In this document: one piece after another, positions 2,452-7,011 of the stretch | Layout of the letters: each line of letters begins with the position of its first letter | Numbering within the stretch: the first letter of the stretch is position 1 | DNA from: a virus | DNA: 64,000 bases | Direction: 5' to 3' (one strand) | IMG/VR virus record: IMGVR_UViG_3300020056_002272 | Coordinates: 1-64,000 of that record | The notes under the pieces: model-generated | What the model was told of the DNA's origin: nothing | Databases searched by the model: none | The model's input: only the letters and a program-made list of their open reading frames with translations | Made by a program: the position numbers and the translations under genes

Positions 2452-2672
2452 TGTCTCTTGACGATAACGAGATTAAGACACTAGCCGATGACTTTGAAAA
2501 TGAAATAAAAGGTATCAAGGATACGGCTTACAGAGTGTCTTGGCACATGCGTGGCGGCGTTAGCGTAGAACAGTTTCTATACGAAATGGATATAGAAGAT
2601 CGAGAAATTATTCAAAAAATAATCAAAGAAAATATTGAAAATACCAAAACAGCCAGAATGCCGTTGGTTTAA
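2451..2672 (+). CDS. Small gp51-like / tail chaperone T-segment, probably the C-terminal part of a frameshift fusion
   Basis: GTG start with only a weak RBS; motif SWHMRGGVSVEQFLYEMDIEDREII; lies in the -1 frame of the upstream gene. Confidence 0.65.
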   Translation: MSLDDNEIKTLADDFENEIKGIKDTAYRVSWHMRGGVSVEQFLYEMDIEDREIIQKIIKENIENTKTARMPLV

Positions 2673-4057
2673 GAAACTTCAGGATCAGCTGTAGCAGTTT
2701 GTGGCTCTATGCCATCTTTTTCGTTTGCTTCCGATCCAAGATCTATTTCGCCAGGTTGTTCATTGTCAGTGTTTTGAGTAAAGGTAATGTTGAACATTTC
2801 AGAAAATTTAGATTGCATTAATCTTCTGCGATCTCCAACTGCTATAAACGGAACTGCCATAACTTTTTGTGGAGGATAAATTACATTTTGGAAAGCTAAT
2901 TTAGCCCATTCGGTGCTGGCATATATTTGAGGATTTTTTTGATCTTTGCTTGCAGAATATTCCCAGCCGCCGTCTCTAAGCAGTTGATCAAATCCCAAAT
3001 CAAACTCTCCTAACGCACCACTTAACGAATTTAAGGCAAGTCCTGTAACTCCCGCAATACCGCCTGTGATTGCACGGGCAATTATATTGTCTAGGAAGCC
3101 GGCTATCCATTCTGCAAGTATACGCTGATTTGCAGGTCTTGTAAGCCACCATTGAACTAAAAAGAATGCTGTCTCTCTTGCTGCCAGCATGGCTATTGCT
3201 CCAGGTAATCCAACACCGGTTCCGGCCATCACGCCTGCCCAAACATTAGAAATAGTCCTTGCCATGGTTAAGAACATGCGTATTCTTCTTACGCCTTTGA
3301 ACATGGTCAAGCAAAGTGCGGATATCTGTGCTCCAAGTGCTGCTTGACTAGACAATATCAAATCATCTACTTCTTCTTGTGTAAGGTCGCCTTGTGCTTG
3401 TAAATCTTGCCAATAAGCACAGTTTGCAACATGAGAATGAAGCAGTGCTGTAGACCAGCCAGCAATCTCAAAAATACTCAATGCTAACTTCATCAAAGGA
3501 TTGGTTAAAATAAATTTTGCAGTGCTATTTTTTTCTAAAAAATCGCCTAGTGTAGAACCAGATGCTCTATAACCTTCCATAAATCTGCTGCCAGCACCTA
3601 ACTGTCTGTCTGCAACATTGTCTAATAATGTTTGTCTTACAGGTTTTGAACCTCTGTTAAAGTCTTCTATAAATTCTGTTGCTGCTTTTTCGTCTGGAAA
3701 TTTAAAAGCGTGTGAACCGATTTTAACCAAAAAGCCTTTTTCTTTGCTTCCTGACCACATTTTTGCATTTGCATCAAGGTTTACGTTGCCAGTCCTAGCA
3801 TTATCGTAATCAGCAGCATTTCCTTGATTGCCAAACTTGGTTCCCAACTCGCTCCACATGGCGTTTAATTGTTTAACTTCATCCTTAAACGCCATCCTTC
3901 CAGGAGAGCCGTCAGGTTTGACCCTCTGCCACATTTGTCCTTTGAATTCAAACGTGTCATCGCCTAGAATATACTGCAAGCCTTTAGGAGGTGTATCTGC
4001 CTCAGCTTCGTTTATTATTACTTTATCATATGAAATTACTTCTAGAAGTTTCACCAT
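2669..4057 (-). CDS. Hypothetical late protein, possible internal head/ejected protein with hydrophobic helices
   Basis: Start revised from 4144 to 4057 because TATAAATA lies at 4087-4094. N-terminus MVKLLEV...IINEAEA; Gly/Ala-rich hydrophobic segments in the C-terminal half. Confidence 0.6.
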   Translation of the reverse strand: MVKLLEVISYDKVIINEAEADTPPKGLQYILGDDTFEFKGQMWQRVKPDGSPGRMAFKDEVKQLNAMWSELGTKFGNQGNAADYDNARTGNVNLDANAKMWSGSKEKGFLVKIGSHAFKFPDEKAATEFIEDFNRGSKPVRQTLLDNVADRQLGAGSRFMEGYRASGSTLGDFLEKNSTAKFILTNPLMKLALSIFEIAGWSTALLHSHVANCAYWQDLQAQGDLTQEEVDDLILSSQAALGAQISALCLTMFKGVRRIRMFLTMARTISNVWAGVMAGTGVGLPGAIAMLAARETAFFLVQWWLTRPANQRILAEWIAGFLDNIIARAITGGIAGVTGLALNSLSGALGEFDLGFDQLLRDGGWEYSASKDQKNPQIYASTEWAKLAFQNVIYPPQKVMAVPFIAVGDRRRLMQSKFSEMFNITFTQNTDNEQPGEIDLGSEANEKDGIEPQTATADPEVS

Positions 4058-4086
4058 GTATGTAGTTATCCAATTAATTGATAATG

Positions 4087-4094
4087 TATTTATA
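4087..4094 (-). promoter_or_regulatory. T4-type late promoter TATAAATA
   Basis: Exact consensus on the minus strand about 30 nt upstream of ATG 4057, flanked by the inverted repeat AATGTAT/ATACATT. Confidence 0.75.
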
Positions 4095-4100
4095 TACATT

Positions 4101-4530
4101 TGAGTTGAACTACGTTCAACTGTGTTTTCGTTTGCACTCAACACAATTATAATTTCTTAATTGATAATGAGAAATGCAATACAACGAAGTGGTATTGCTT
4201 TTAGTATCATTCAGATTGTGAAGTCATAATTCGCCCGTTGCCGGGCGAAGGTAGCTTTTGAGCTTCATTCGAGTCGCTTCAGCCATCTTGTTAAAAGAGA
4301 TTCAACTTTCGTTGTCGGAGGCGGTTGACCTGTATCCCCCTACTCTAGCTTCGTCATATCAACGGAAGGCAGTTATTCCCTAACAAGCGAAAACACTTAC
4401 CCTTGGGTTGCTTTTTCTCAGAGCCCATTCCTTTAAAGCCTATCGTATACTTCTTCACGCGAGCATTCCACGCCACCGGCCACGAGCATTACCTCGGCTG
4501 GATCTTGGAGTTTAATTAGAGCTCGTTATA
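4101..4530 (-). ncRNA. Large structured non-coding element of unknown family (ncRNA and/or origin)
   Basis: Longest non-coding gap in the window. 144/300 G+C (48%) over 4201-4500. Minus-strand stems closed by GNRA loops (TTCGCCCG-GCAA-CGGGCGAA, CAAC-GAAA-GTTG, GT-GCAA-AC) and a potential pseudoknot CTTGTTA/TAACAAG. Confidence 0.65.
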
Positions 4531-4534
4531 TAGC

Positions 4535-4960
4535 CTATTTGTGTTCTAGTAGTGCCTGGCGTAGTTTGTTTGATCCACCAACTCTTACATTGATGATTCC
4601 GTTGTAGTATTCGTCTGTTTCCAATACTCGCCTGTCAAACTGTTCTCGTGCTTCAATGTAACTCATTTCTGCTCTGCTTTGGCAGAAGTAAAGTATTTCA
4701 CGAGTAAAGTTTTTTTCGCCTAGTGTTTTTACATCTTCGTTCAGTCTATCTGAACTTCCCCAGTATTCACGCCAATCGCTTTCTTTGTAGCCTCGACGTT
4801 TGTTCTTTTTGCCTTTTAAAGGTGGCTTGGTTGTTTTAAACTTTGCTAATTTTTTGCCTACATACTTTTGTTGTGTTTTTAAGTTGGTAATAAGGTATAC
4901 AAAGCCTTCATATTTATCGTCAATCTTGTCAACTTTTTCACCATTATATGTCCAACTCAT
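4535..4960 (-). CDS. Single-domain GIY-YIG (Seg-like) endonuclease
   Basis: GFVYLITN...KYVGKK, YWGSS, NFTREIL, conserved E (YIEAREQ) and YYN; no appended DNA-binding domain. Confidence 0.8.
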   Translation of the reverse strand: MSWTYNGEKVDKIDDKYEGFVYLITNLKTQQKYVGKKLAKFKTTKPPLKGKKNKRRGYKESDWREYWGSSDRLNEDVKTLGEKNFTREILYFCQSRAEMSYIEAREQFDRRVLETDEYYNGIINVRVGGSNKLRQALLEHK

Positions 4961-4963
4961 ACT

Positions 4964-5239
4964 TTATGTATTATTTCTTTTGGCTGCCTTTACCTCTTTT
5001 GATTTCTGTGCCTTTGCTTTGTTGCTTGCCCATTTACCAGATGCTCTAACCTGTTCTAAAACTACCAGGTAATGGTCTTGTATTTCGTCTTGCCTTTGTT
5101 TTGCTAGCCTCATAAGATTACGCAATGTGCGTCTTGCGTTCCGTTTTGTTCTATCACTTGGCCCTTGTTCAAACTTTTCGTTTGCTGCAAAATATTCCAA
5201 GTATGCCTTTACCAGTTTATCATGTGTGTCATCTGTCAT
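4964..5239 (-). CDS. Small basic helical protein, possibly nucleic-acid binding
   Basis: Coupled to gp46 by an ATGA overlap; K/R-rich (RTKRNARRTLRNLMRLAKQR) with a basic tail. Confidence 0.55.
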   Translation of the reverse strand: MTDDTHDKLVKAYLEYFAANEKFEQGPSDRTKRNARRTLRNLMRLAKQRQDEIQDHYLVVLEQVRASGKWASNKAKAQKSKEVKAAKRNNT

Positions 5240-7011
5240 TCAACAATCTCTACATCATTTGCATATGAAGTAAAGCCGTTCTCCTTAATAACTTTGAGAA
5301 CATGATTAACTCTACCAACTAGTTCGTCTTTGTGTGAGATAAGGAAAACATTTTTGCTACGCTCTCTGCCCATCTTTTTCAACACACTCAATGCATTTTC
5401 TACACCAGCGGTGTCCATGCCACTATCAATAAGTTCGTCAATAAACATCAAGTTAATGCCTTGATACAGTGATTCCCAAACATCACGGAATGCAAAACTC
5501 ATACCTAGTATAAGTCTGTTGCGTTCACCGCGTGACAAGTTATCAAAGTCTAAGTCTTGACCGAGTTGTGTAATCTCAACATTCAAATCATTTTGGAATC
5601 TAACCTGATGCGGCAGTCCTAGTCTATCTAAATAGTAGGTTAATCTGTTGTTCAAGTATGCCAAGTTCTGATCGATAATCTTTTTTCGAATAAAACTGTC
5701 TTTGTTTGTAAGAAGTTTAAGCAAAAACTCTTGATGATCTTTAATATTTGTTAATTCGTTAACTGGATTCCAGTCGATTTGTTGTATAGCTGTTTCATTT
5801 AGATCATCTATTTGTGTTTGATAAGGATCATCTTCTGTTTTTTTATTTTCCAATGCAATTTTCAAGTTTTCTACATTGTTTCTATGCTCGTATGCTTCTT
5901 TTGCACTTTCATAAAATGTATTTGGGCGTCCGTTGATATCGCCTATGTCGTTTAGTGCTTGCATAGTTGATTCAAGTTTGCCTGCAACTTCGGTTTGGTA
6001 TGCAAGTGCATCACTTAATTCTTTTTGTTTGCGAGTTTCAATTTCTGCTTTCTTGTCTGCATGTAATTCTTGCCCACAGGTGTAACAAACAGCATCATCA
6101 AGTTCTTTAATATCTTTTTCTGCCTTGTCAACAGTCTTTGTTGCCCGCATCAATGCGCTTTCTAGTGTGGCTTTTTCTTTATTCAAGCTGGTTATACGAT
6201 TATTAAGCTCAGTCCAGTTTACAAGTTTGTCATGTGCGTCTAATTCGGCATCGATGTCGAGTTTTTCTAATTCTTCAATGCCTTTTTCTAGTTTTTCAAC
6301 GTCGGTTTTTTGTTTTGCCATCCATGCACGTTGTCTTCCAGCAAGTGTTTCGATACTTTGTTCAATTTTTTTGTTACTAGCCTCGATAGCATTGATTTTT
6401 AGTGTTTCTTCTGTGATAGAATCTTTGGTTTTGCGTGTTTGTTCCTTTAACACATCTGCTTTTTCGGTTAGTATTGTGATACCAAGTAGCTGTTCGATGA
6501 TTGCACGTTGATCATTGGCCCGCATACTCAAGAACGGCTCGGTATAAGTGTTCAATGCAAGTATGTGCTTGAACATGTCATGGCTCATACCAAGTAATTC
6601 TTGCACATCTTCTTGTGTTTTACGGCTATCCCCTTGTGATTCGTCAATGTCTTGTTTTTGTTCTTGATCATTTACATAAAACTTGAATATATTAGGAGAG
6701 CGGCCACGTTCAATGCGGTATCTGTTGCGTCCTTTCTCAAAGTTTAGTGTTACCAACATGCCTTTGCTGTTGGTTTTGTTGATTAGATTGTTTCGTTTGA
6801 TATTTGTTAGGGCAGTTCCGTATAATGCGTAGCTTAGTGCATTAATAATTGTAGTTTTACCAGTTCCGTTACGTGATCCAGTGTCATCACCGCCTTGGTC
6901 TAGGTTCTCACCAAGCACAAGTGTCAGCTGTTCTTCATTGAAGTCAACTGCTTGGGTAACATTACCCACACTCATAAAGTTTTTTACTGTTAAATCTTTT
7001 ATTCTAATCAT
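5236..7011 (-). CDS. gp46: Recombination endonuclease ATPase subunit (Rad50/SbcC-like)
   Basis: KNFMS, Walker A NGTGKT, coiled coil with zinc hook CYTC, signature LSRGE, Walker B FIDE, H-loop ISH. Confidence 0.93.
   Translation of the reverse strand: MIRIKDLTVKNFMSVGNVTQAVDFNEEQLTLVLGENLDQGGDDTGSRNGTGKTTIINALSYALYGTALTNIKRNNLINKTNSKGMLVTLNFEKGRNRYRIERGRSPNIFKFYVNDQEQKQDIDESQGDSRKTQEDVQELLGMSHDMFKHILALNTYTEPFLSMRANDQRAIIEQLLGITILTEKADVLKEQTRKTKDSITEETLKINAIEASNKKIEQSIETLAGRQRAWMAKQKTDVEKLEKGIEELEKLDIDAELDAHDKLVNWTELNNRITSLNKEKATLESALMRATKTVDKAEKDIKELDDAVCYTCGQELHADKKAEIETRKQKELSDALAYQTEVAGKLESTMQALNDIGDINGRPNTFYESAKEAYEHRNNVENLKIALENKKTEDDPYQTQIDDLNETAIQQIDWNPVNELTNIKDHQEFLLKLLTNKDSFIRKKIIDQNLAYLNNRLTYYLDRLGLPHQVRFQNDLNVEITQLGQDLDFDNLSRGERNRLILGMSFAFRDVWESLYQGINLMFIDELIDSGMDTAGVENALSVLKKMGRERSKNVFLISHKDELVGRVNHVLKVIKENGFTSYANDVEIVE

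What the first reader, a model, noticed from the sequence alone, without database searches (positions are those of the whole stretch)
4150..4960. Minimal GIY-YIG nuclease followed immediately by a large ornate structured RNA: candidate ribonucleoprotein or RNA-linked nuclease system
Seen: in an otherwise gene-packed window, a non-coding block begins right after the GIY-YIG stop (4535). It is 48% GC over 4201-4500, well above the surrounding AT-rich DNA. On the same (minus) strand it folds into many stems: GCCGAG-GTAATG-CTCG(T)GGC; AAGGGTAAGTGTTTTC/GGGAATAACTGCCTT, whose loop CTTGTTA (4381-4387) matches distal TAACAAG (4287-4293) as a pseudoknot; GGGGG/CCTCC enclosing GGT-CA-ACC; CAAC-GAAA-GTTG (4303-4314); TTCGCCCG-GCAA-CGGGCGAA (4230-4249); TGAAG/CTTCA. 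GNRA loops and G-U pairs favour a minus-strand RNA. The 141-aa nuclease has only the catalytic domain plus a very basic insert (KFKTTKPPLKGKKNKRRGYK) and lacks the DNA-recognition domains usual in Seg homing endonucleases. Inference: the RNA could provide specificity or scaffold for the nuclease, co-transcribed with gp47/gp46 to start recombination-dependent replication. Alternatively it is an independent large ncRNA or an origin primer RNA. I do not recognise it as a known family.
Basis: partly seen in the sequence, partly recalled or inferred. Interest (0 to 1): 0.85.

Follow-up and report, generated by a model that had tools for sequence, protein, structure and literature searches.

The report
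Twin-box structured RNA behind phage nuclease
The gene-free stretch after a small DNA-cutting enzyme gene of this uncultured marine T4-like phage encodes a real, knotted RNA of about 330-365 bases that shows one 7-letter word twice. It belongs to a widespread, mostly uncatalogued family of unknown function, and nothing shows that it guides the enzyme.

Summary

Single-sequence folding is unremarkable (z = -0.1). Comparative evidence is strong. Homologous blocks lie in more than 270 viral contigs. The proposed fold, with pseudoknots, beats the shuffled and slid controls (0/500) on pairing and covariation in two alignments, though not on the count of further pair types.

The 3' domain carries two boxes about 58 nt apart. 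They hold the same 7-mer in nearly all loci, although at least 15 different words occur. U4 and A6 never vary. In this window the boxes differ at position 7.

No Rfam family matches this window. In freshwater relatives the same 3' domain is preceded by Rfam RF01718 (Polynucleobacter-1).

The 141-aa protein is a real single-domain GIY-YIG nuclease. The guide-RNA reading is not supported:
- The RNA also follows PD-(D/E)XK nucleases or non-nuclease genes.
- It is sometimes separated from the nuclease by inserted ORFs.
- No nuclease residue tracks the box word.

The most likely reading is an autonomous RNA at the end of an early operon whose two boxes are read by an unknown trans factor.

This scan has found the same family before on other DNA (the 'twin-box RNA' notes).

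The parts
4535..4960 (-). Single-domain GIY-YIG nuclease gene (141 aa)
   Evidence: PF19835, E 2e-32. Model matches the I-TevI catalytic domain at Z 8.1. 46 invariant residues among 29 homologues of 55-93% identity. Syntenic after gp46 and a 91-aa ORF in all 78 loci with enough upstream DNA held.
4203..4534 (-). Body of the structured RNA (RNA position 1 = window 4534; position = 4535 minus the coordinate)
   Evidence: 81-95% identical in 24 loci. Fold supported by covariation. The 3' half (4351-4206) scores 86.7 bits with model R1, but it was in the seed.
4460..4525 (-). Helix A1 (4525-4521 with 4464-4460), enclosing the GCCGAG...CUCG(U)GGC hairpin (4501-4476)
   Evidence: Three of five A1 pairs show compensatory changes (CG/UA, AU/GC, GC/AU).
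4435..4453 (-). Hairpin A4
   Evidence: G-C to A-U compensatory change in 7 of 18 sequences.
4404..4427 (-). Helix A5 with an A-rich loop, the counterpart of helix H4 of the other types
   Evidence: UGGG/CCCA, GUGG/CCAC and GCGG/CCGC variants. H4 has 5 of 7 pairs with compensatory changes.
4367..4403 (-). Long imperfect hairpin. Its loop CUUGUUA (4387-4381) pairs with UAACAAG (4293-4287) as a pseudoknot.
   Evidence: Stem 100% paired with one compensatory pair. Pseudoknot 100% paired with one-sided changes only.
4296..4346 (-). Core: helix Y (4346-4343 / 4299-4296), hairpin GGGGG/CCUCC (4340-4317) with the invariant AGGUCA loop, and the variable CAAC-GAAA-GUUG hairpin (4314-4303)
   Evidence: GUAGG..G..A.AGGUCA....CC is invariant in 95 sequences. 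The variable hairpin is replaced by 28-68-nt hairpins in relatives.
4264..4270 (-). Box 1: GAAUGAA, preceded by the invariant ACUC
4230..4249 (-). Hairpin UUCGCCCG-GCAA-CGGGCGAA
   Evidence: One compensatory pair among close relatives. The homologous hairpin H9 has 3 compensatory pairs.
4219..4226 (-). UGACUUCA: the 3' partner either of AGGUCA (4331-4326, pseudoknot PK1) or of UGAAG (4281-4277)
   Evidence: Both pairings are possible and overlap. PK1 is kept in marine types. Compensatory examples for the second pairing were seen by eye in other clades.
4206..4212 (-). Box 2: GAAUGAU, preceded by the invariant AAUCU
4176..4198 (-). Terminator-like hairpin GCAAUAC...GUAUUGC followed by AUUUCUCAUU. 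Probable 3' end of the RNA.
   Evidence: Sequence. Relatives have clear hairpin plus U-tract terminators at the same place. Homology to relatives ends at 4196. The strict terminator scan did not call it.

Best explanation
Window 4534 to about 4170 (minus strand) encodes an autonomous structured non-coding RNA of about 330-365 nt.

It is the marine 'type A' member of a large family found in uncultured aquatic T4-like, often giant, phages. The family shares a conserved, pseudoknotted 3' domain. The 5' domain is swappable, and in freshwater relatives it is the Rfam motif Polynucleobacter-1.

The RNA is most likely made as the last part of the early or middle transcript gp47-gp46-orf91-GIY-YIG and ends at the hairpin at 4198-4176.

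Its working surface is probably the pair of boxes A-YYY-NNN-U-R-A-N-R (4270-4264 and 4212-4206). The scaffold would present them to two copies of one and the same trans-acting reader. The variable box positions stay identical to each other across at least 15 different words, and no complement exists in the RNA or within 3 kb. The RNA would then act as a bivalent guide, or as a decoy for it.

The GIY-YIG nuclease is a fixed neighbour rather than a partner. It is either a domesticated homing-type endonuclease that settled beside an ultra-conserved RNA gene, or an early DNA-metabolism enzyme.

Shown here: the RNA exists, its fold co-varies, the boxes change together, and it occurs without the GIY gene.
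For: Family and conservation:
- Every one of 109 contigs that hold the 24-mer core and more than 800 nt upstream shares the locus, even where gp46 is only 53% identical.
- 279 loci carry twin boxes.

Fold:
- On 95 sequences: 86.9% of cells paired against 79.0 shuffled; 505 double-sided changes against 171; covariation score 0.196 against 0.111; 0/500 shuffles reach each; slid controls at most 41%.
- The long-range pseudoknot helix has 5 of 5 compensatory pairs.
- The window's own type.

Twin boxes:
- Identical in 132 of 140 loci and in 49 of 56 loci of a second clade.
- Box positions 3 and 5 share full mutual information only with the partner box.

Relation to Rfam: RF01718 scores 88-120 bits directly 5' of R1 matches in freshwater relatives.

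Independence from GIY: PD-(D/E)XK (PF24608, E about 1e-25) or other genes lie upstream in 7 of 100 loci, and ORFs are inserted in about 20 more. No GIY residue tracks the box word.

Transcription: RNA-library contigs of four studies cover 4196-4918 and bridge 4535. No promoter-like site lies before the RNA, and one lies after the hairpin.
Against: - No transcript ends were mapped. The runs are assembled contigs, which cannot show ends, strand or level, and DNA carry-over cannot be excluded.
- MFE z-score is about 0.
- In 93-100% of loci some small nuclease gene (GIY-YIG, or PD-(D/E)XK in its place) lies just upstream. This fits a functional link as well as repeated homing.
A protein reader, or a structural reason for the identity of the boxes, is not excluded.
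- In this window the two boxes differ at position 7.
- All contexts share ancestry, so linkage counts are not independent events.
Confidence: 0.6

Rival explanations
1. RNA-linked nuclease system. The RNA is the specificity or scaffold subunit of the adjacent small nuclease, and the twin 7-mers act as guides for a DNA or RNA target.
For: The nuclease has a catalytic domain only, plus a basic hairpin insert. The RNA starts within 10 nt of its stop codon. The two probably share a transcript. A small nuclease lies upstream in 109 of 109 and 97 of 100 loci. The boxes are variable islands between invariant flanks, like specificity determinants.
Against: The same RNA scaffold follows two unrelated nuclease folds and, in three loci, no nuclease. 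Inserted ORFs separate them in about 20 loci. A close GIY homologue lives without the RNA in Melnitz. No protein residue tracks the boxes. Words of 7 nt with two fixed positions are very short guides. No target or complement was found nearby.
Confidence: 0.08
2. Cis-acting 3'-UTR element. It would be a riboswitch-like or protective structure that controls the stability of the upstream mRNA, or read-through of the terminator into the downstream late region.
For: It is probably co-transcribed and is followed by a terminator. Mutually exclusive pairings of UGACUU (PK1 versus the UGAAG helix) could form a switch. Weinberg et al. 2010 list Polynucleobacter-1 as possibly cis-regulatory (PMC2864571).
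Against: It is 330-490 nt long, with several pseudoknots and an invariant 24-mer core. It is kept behind different upstream genes. The downstream gene is hypervariable and has its own sigma-70-like and late promoters. The concerted twin boxes have no cis partner.
Confidence: 0.15
3. Self-processing RNA (ribozyme) or processing substrate. The two identical boxes are twin cleavage or ligation sites that release or circularise the segment of about 58 nt between them.
For: Ultra-conserved pseudoknotted core. Two identical sites at a fixed spacing of 56-63 nt. RNA contigs of two studies end at 4261-4265, at box 1.
Against: Those contig ends coincide with a strain-variable site, which breaks assemblies. 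Contigs of two other runs run through, and no joint skips the segment. No known ribozyme family matches. Identity of the variable positions is not needed for cleavage directed by structure.
Confidence: 0.08
4. The conservation reflects a DNA-level element (an origin, a packaging site or a homing-endonuclease target), not an RNA.
For: It lies next to recombination genes and to nucleases that typically recognise conserved DNA.
Against: Compensatory changes keep pairing. Seven positions are dominated by G-U on the minus strand only. Variable-length hairpins are inserted at fixed points. An intrinsic terminator follows in relatives.
Confidence: 0.04

Closest known systems
Polynucleobacter-1 RNA motif (Rfam RF01718; Weinberg et al. 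2010, PMC2864571)
   Same: In freshwater relatives RF01718 starts 10-50 nt after the homologous GIY-YIG stop (88-120 bits; gathering score 37). It is followed about 90 nt later by the 3' domain homologous to window 4351-4206. Its function is unknown, and it is reported from fresh water and estuaries.
   Different: The window's own 5' domain gives no RF01718 match even at E up to 10, nor do 18 marine loci at the gathering score. The Rfam model covers only the first 141 nt and lacks the twin-box domain.
'Twin-box structured RNA' of earlier notes in this scan (unpublished AI notes, for example e1-6005924, e1-5934755, e1-6037103)
   Same: Same family by sequence look-up. I re-derived the same hallmarks here: a knotted fold, a 7-mer present twice that changes in concert, and occurrence behind PD-(D/E)XK nucleases.
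   Different: The claim of copies in bacterial genomic islands could not be reproduced. The core-pattern scan of 185,579 species genomes gave only two real hits, both phage-like contigs with the GIY gene.
Large ornate phage-associated RNAs of unknown function (GOLLD, ROOL; cryo-EM in bioRxiv 10.1101/2024.12.08.627333)
   Same: Several hundred nucleotides, many helices and pseudoknots, phage-borne, no known function.
   Different: No Rfam match to either. Not next to tRNA genes. The twin-box feature is not described for them, as far as I know.
OMEGA/TnpB- and IscB-type guide RNAs (HEARO), and IS110 bridge RNAs
   Same: A structured RNA encoded directly beside a small nuclease gene, with short variable segments between conserved scaffold parts.
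   Different: Different nuclease folds. No long variable guide at an RNA end. The RNA is not tied to one protein family. No transposon ends are present. The resemblance is one of layout only.
I-TevI / Seg-type GIY-YIG homing endonucleases and T4 endonuclease II
   Same: Same catalytic fold (Z 8.1 to I-TevI, 4.9 to EndoII) and the Pfam SegE_GIY-YIG domain. The size is close to EndoII (134-residue chain).
   Different: No linker or DNA-binding domain as in I-TevI or the Seg proteins. A conserved basic beta-hairpin insert at residues 40-60. Fixed in synteny rather than sporadic.

Membership tests
Rfam RF01718 Polynucleobacter-1 | Covariance-model score of at least 37 bits (gathering score) | tested here: not met
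   No match in the window at the gathering score or at E up to 10 over 3900-5300. Met in 9 of 20 freshwater relatives.
GGCU ... CUC-box ... UGAC ... AAUCU-box | tested here: met
   Window 4351-4206 scores 86.7 bits, E 4e-21, but it was one of the 54 seed sequences. As an independent check, R1 finds 59 of 62 loci of a clade that was not in the seed.
Twin-box phage RNA family | The two boxes carry the same 7-mer | tested here: inconclusive
   GAAUGAA and GAAUGAU: 6 of 7 identical, differing at position 7. Edge mismatches (position 1 or 7) occur in 5 of 56 other members.
Twin-box phage RNA family | Pseudoknotted fold supported by covariation | tested here: met
   Pseudoknots PK-A and PK1 are kept but show no double-sided changes among the close relatives.
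GIY-YIG nuclease superfamily (Pfam PF19835 SegE_GIY-YIG) | Profile match above the curated cut-off, and the GIY-YIG fold | tested here: met
   112.4 bits against a cut-off of 25. The top four structural matches are GIY-YIG domains.
GIY-YIG nuclease superfamily | Conserved catalytic Tyr, Tyr, Arg, Glu and Asn | tested here: inconclusive
   Y22, Y33, R56, R87, E103 and N120 are invariant, and E88 nearly so, in 29 homologues. Which of them are the catalytic residues is inferred by position, not from a residue-level superposition.
Seg / I-TevI-type homing endonucleases | C-terminal DNA-binding domain, and sporadic presence among close relatives | tested here: not met
   The Pfam domain fills residues 3-123 of 141. 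The gene is present in 109 of 109 and 93 of 100 related loci.
RNA-guided nuclease systems (OMEGA-like) | Obligate pairing of one nuclease family with the RNA, and a variable guide matched by a target | tested here: not met
   The RNA occurs with GIY-YIG, with PD-(D/E)XK, or with neither. No complement of the boxes was found in cis or within 3 kb. No protein covariation. Binding was not testable.
Group I intron carrying a GIY-YIG gene | Match to the intron model, P3-P9 topology, flanking exons | tested here: not met
   No RF00028 match at E up to 10. The hairpin lies between the 5' strands of the crossing helices, not where P8 would be (structure). A terminator and promoters follow instead of an exon.
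tmRNA / tRNA-like RNAs | Detected by ARAGORN or by the Rfam tmRNA models | tested here: not met
   ARAGORN finds nothing in 64 kb. No Rfam match.

The most novel reading that the evidence does not exclude
The RNA is the programmable subunit of a new kind of RNA-directed nuclease. A conserved knotted scaffold recruits an interchangeable minimal nuclease (GIY-YIG or PD-(D/E)XK) encoded just upstream. The twin 7-mers pair with two copies of a short target word in competitor-phage or host nucleic acid, which sets where the enzyme cuts.
Probability: 0.07. Interest if true: 0.95.

Novelty: new variant of a known kind. Interest (0 to 1): 0.62.

Why it matters
Large, intricately folded RNAs with no known function are rare, and each one solved so far has revealed new biochemistry. 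This family is abundant in aquatic giant T4-like phages: hundreds of contigs, and present in RNA libraries of four marine, salt-marsh or other aquatic studies.

Two results stand out. First, the orphan Rfam motif Polynucleobacter-1 turns out to be only the front end of a longer RNA. Second, the RNA carries a pair of short words that evolve in concert, which is what one expects of a specificity determinant read by something that itself varies between phages or hosts.

It would also settle whether the ever-present neighbouring nuclease is involved.

Tried and rejected
- Rfam at the gathering score on the window, 6 loci, 12 divergent loci and 20 freshwater loci, and at E up to 10 on two stretches. 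Only RF01718 matched, and only in the freshwater loci.
- ARAGORN: no tRNA or tmRNA.
- MFE z-scores gave no signal.
- Group I intron reading: rejected on topology, the lack of a model match and the lack of exons.
- Small ORFs ending at the boxes (positions 4-6 are always UGA or UAA): the upstream frames are not conserved and have no start codon.
- Anti-box search in cis, mutual information with all columns, and a third copy or complement within 3 kb in 216 unique loci: nothing.
- Box word in the window: 14 occurrences against about 28 expected, so not enriched.
- Covariation of GIY residues with the box word: none.
- Cultured phages:
  - blastn of the window stretch and of a type-B RNA against 50,697 phage records found no RNA match.
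  - Model R1 found nothing real in Melnitz, PA5oct or Phosso. The weak Melnitz hit lies inside a CDS.
- Bacterial copies:
  - The core-pattern scan of genome contigs gave 3 chance hits and 2 phage-like MAG contigs.
  - RF01718 was not found in 151 sampled Gammaproteobacteria genomes, and the controls were silent, so this is uninformative.
- Read laying: parts without cover (orf91, most of gp46, 4105-4165) may only reflect the 90% identity filter. The contig ends at 4261-4265 coincide with a strain-variable site. Depths cannot rank the RNA against the gene.
- Formal counting of the UGAAG/CUUCA helix on the model-fitted alignment failed because the unpaired columns are poorly aligned.
- Literature searches found no description of this RNA.
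- phmmer against PDB sequences and Foldseek gave no significant match for the nuclease. VIA-align did.
Full report
WHAT IS THERE

The window comes from an 84.7-kb IMG/VR contig of an uncultured T4-like myophage. On the minus strand the order is as follows:

| Feature | Window coordinates |
|---|---|
| late sigma factor gp55-like gene | 8901-8068 |
| gp47 | 8020-7004 |
| gp46 | 7011-5236 |
| 91-aa ORF | 5239-4964 |
| 141-aa GIY-YIG gene | 4960-4535 |
| gene-free block | about 4534-4058 |
| terminator-like hairpin | 4198-4176 |
| sigma-70-like promoter | 4173-4146 |
| two conserved hairpins | 4144-4103 |
| TATAAATA late-promoter word | 4094-4087 |
| large ORF, start probably ATG 4057 | 4057-2669 |

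- The closest gp46 proteins in cultured phages are those of Pseudomonas phage PA5oct (50%) and Sinorhizobium phage Phosso (47%). Neither has the nuclease or the RNA at that place.
- The block is GC-richer than most of its surroundings. Its longest ORFs are 40-41 aa.

IS THE RNA REAL?

Folding the single sequence says nothing: z is -0.10 on the minus strand and -0.91 on the plus strand. The comparative evidence is decisive.

- A protein-anchored search found more than 600 close GIY homologues in viral contigs. In all 78 of the 80 kept loci that hold enough upstream DNA, the gene sits after gp46 and the small ORF.
- The first 339 nt of the block are 81-95% identical in 24 loci ('type A').
- Most other loci carry a different-looking block ('types B and C'). 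It shares an invariant core and the whole 3' domain with type A.
- A 24-mer of that core occurs in at least 120 further contigs. All 109 with enough upstream sequence have the GIY gene just before it, although gp46 falls to 53% identity. A non-coding word that stays exact while flanking proteins diverge this far is under strong selection.
- Variable-length hairpins are inserted at fixed points. For example, the window's CAAC-GAAA-GUUG hairpin is replaced by hairpins of 28-68 nt.

I wrote a fold with 15 helices, three of them pseudoknots, on a 95-sequence alignment:

| Measure | Observed | Shuffled | Shuffles reaching it |
|---|---|---|---|
| Cells paired | 86.9% | 79.0% | 0/500 |
| Double-sided changes | 505 | 171 | 0/500 |
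| Covariation score | 0.196 | 0.111 | 0/500 |

- Partners slid by 1-3 columns pair in at most 41% of cells.
- The number of further pair types did not beat the shuffles (160/500).
- The long-range helix that crosses helix Y has compensatory changes at all five pairs.

For the window's own type, 74 pairs on 18 sequences give 96.1% paired against 94.0, and 42 double-sided cells against 16.2 (0/500). Slid controls reach at most 47.7%.

Seven pair positions are mostly G-U on the minus strand, which fixes the strand. Relatives end the block with clear hairpin plus U-tract terminators.

- The CUUGUUA/UAACAAG pseudoknot is kept but shows only one-sided changes.
- UGAAG/CUUCA overlaps the alternative AGGUCA/UGACUU. 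Both partners are invariant among close relatives. Other clades show compensatory versions of the first helix by eye (CUGG/CCAG, CUGGU/ACCAG, CUGCGGUCAC/GUGACCACAG), while the second is kept in marine types. The two may be alternative states.

THE TWIN BOXES

In the 3' domain, a 7-mer follows the invariant ACUC (box 1, window 4270-4264). A second 7-mer follows the invariant AAUCU (box 2, 4212-4206), 56-63 nt further on.

- The two are identical in 132 of 140 loci of the first set (nine identical words) and in 49 of 56 of a second clade (six more words).
- Over 279 loci, 12 different six-letter cores occur.
- Positions 1, 2, 3, 5 and 7 vary. U4 and A6 never do, so positions 4-6 always read UGA or UAA. 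Position 7 is never C.
- Mismatches between the boxes occur only at the edges (position 1 or 7). The window is such a case: GAAUGAA against GAAUGAU.
- Box positions 3 and 5 share full mutual information only with the partner box.
- There is no complementary word in the RNA or its flanks.
- No conserved ORF ends at the boxes.
- There is no third copy or complement at a fixed place within 3 kb.
- The word is not enriched in the window.

A reader that touched only the fixed letters would let the two boxes drift apart. Their concerted change argues for a reader whose own specificity varies, which most simply means a nucleic acid. This step is inference.

RELATION TO KNOWN FAMILIES

No Rfam family reaches its gathering score in the window or in 18 marine loci, and nothing relevant appears at E up to 10.

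Earlier notes of this scan called the same family the 'twin-box RNA' and named Polynucleobacter-1 as its nearest catalogued relative. I tested this.

- I stepped outward with a 55%-identical GIY homologue, which gave a freshwater clade on contigs up to 347 kb.
- Nine of 20 loci scanned hold RF01718 over its full length (88-120 bits; gathering score 37), starting 10-50 nt after the GIY stop.
- A covariance model built only from marine 3' domains (R1) finds 59 of 62 loci of that clade, downstream of RF01718 where it is present.

So the orphan motif of Weinberg et al. 2010 (PMC2864571) is the 5' domain of longer RNAs that share the window's 3' domain. The window's own 5' domain is a different module.

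THE NUCLEASE, AND WHETHER IT IS A PARTNER

The protein is a bona fide GIY-YIG domain.
- Pfam PF19835, E 2e-32.
- AlphaFold model with pLDDT 87.6.
- Best structural matches: I-TevI catalytic domain (Z 8.1), PD-T4-3 (7.2), UvrC N-terminal domain (5.1), T4 endonuclease II (4.9).
- It has no further domain. The basic insert is a confident beta-hairpin that is well conserved, though N53 and R56 are its only invariant residues.
- 46 of its residues are invariant among homologues down to 55% identity.
- It is thus a functional, vertically kept gene in this clade, not a decaying homing gene.

Five results speak against a private partnership.
1. With the freshwater core as probe, 93 of 100 loci have GIY upstream. 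In about 20 of these it lies 0.9-2.2 kb away, with ORFs inserted (for example a 337-aa ORF in L218).
2. Seven loci lack GIY. In four of them the gene in the same slot after gp46 is a PD-(D/E)XK endonuclease (PF24608, E about 1e-25). In one it is phosphorylase-like, and in one a 98-aa unknown.
3. Phage Melnitz has a 68%-identical GIY gene beside nrdB with no RNA, and no R1 match anywhere in its genome.
4. No GIY residue co-varies with the box word.
5. One RNA scaffold serving two unrelated folds is unlikely for a ribonucleoprotein.

What remains striking is that a small nuclease of one kind or the other precedes the RNA in almost every locus. Two readings fit:
- Homing-type nucleases repeatedly settled beside an ultra-conserved target.
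- There is a loose functional link.
I cannot separate them.

EXPRESSION

- Ten RNA-library runs from nine studies hold part of the stretch.
- Laid contigs of four studies cover 4196-4918. Four contigs bridge the stop codon, which fits one transcript for gene and RNA.
- The scan finds no promoter-like site before the RNA.
- Contigs cannot show ends, strand or abundance, and DNA carry-over is possible.

VERDICT

The element is a real member of a widespread, largely uncatalogued phage RNA family with a knotted, co-varying fold and two concertedly evolving boxes.

- Most likely it is an RNA gene in its own right, read in trans by an unknown partner (confidence 0.6).
- The RNA-guided-nuclease reading stays possible but weak (0.07-0.08).
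- Its function remains open. The next steps above would decide.

Noticed in passing
window 4144-4085 (minus strand): Between the RNA's terminator and the late gene lie a conserved hairpin with a 12-nt loop (GUGUU-GAGUGCAAACGA-AACAC; in relatives GUUUGAGCGWWAGCGAAAAC), a second hairpin of variable sequence (AGUUGAAC-GUA-GUUCAACU), and then the late-promoter word TATAAATA (4094-4087). The arrangement is kept across marine clades. The GTG that the ORF listing uses as the start of the 491-aa ORF lies inside the first hairpin.
   Followed up: partly
window 4173-4146 (minus strand): A sigma-70-like promoter (TTCTCA, 16 nt, TATAAT; 10 of 12 matches) lies directly after the RNA's terminator hairpin. 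Relatives have TATAAT-like words at the same place.
   Followed up: partly
window 2669-4057 (minus strand): The gene after the RNA is hypervariable. Relatives have ORFs of 173-563 aa in this slot with no tblastn match to the window's protein, and many contigs end within 0-200 nt of the GIY stop. This suggests strain-level variation that breaks assemblies.
   Followed up: partly
L315, L347, L361, L374 (for example L347:11831-12349): In these relatives a PD-(D/E)XK endonuclease (PF24608) occupies the slot of the GIY-YIG gene, between gp46 and the RNA. An unrelated nuclease has replaced it at one locus.
   Followed up: yes
L208, L209 (PBPT01000016.1 and PBPT01000082.1, 'Candidatus Neomarinimicrobiota' MAG): Two contigs of 335 kb and 153 kb in a bacterial MAG carry the phage GIY gene and the RNA. 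They look like giant-phage contigs binned with a bacterium.
   Followed up: no
L204:6906-7930 (Sinorhizobium phage Phosso): A 1-kb stretch without annotated genes lies between a Holliday-junction resolvase gene and RNase HI. It is GC-rich with many hairpins. Model R1 does not match it.
   Followed up: no
L153 (about 100 nt between the GIY stop and the RNA): Three tandem A/C-rich repeats of about 17 nt (CAGACACMAAGTCAAAC) precede the RNA in this locus.
   Followed up: no
The 1615-2451 ORF matches Pfam T4_baseplate. The frameshift itself was not examined.
   Followed up: no
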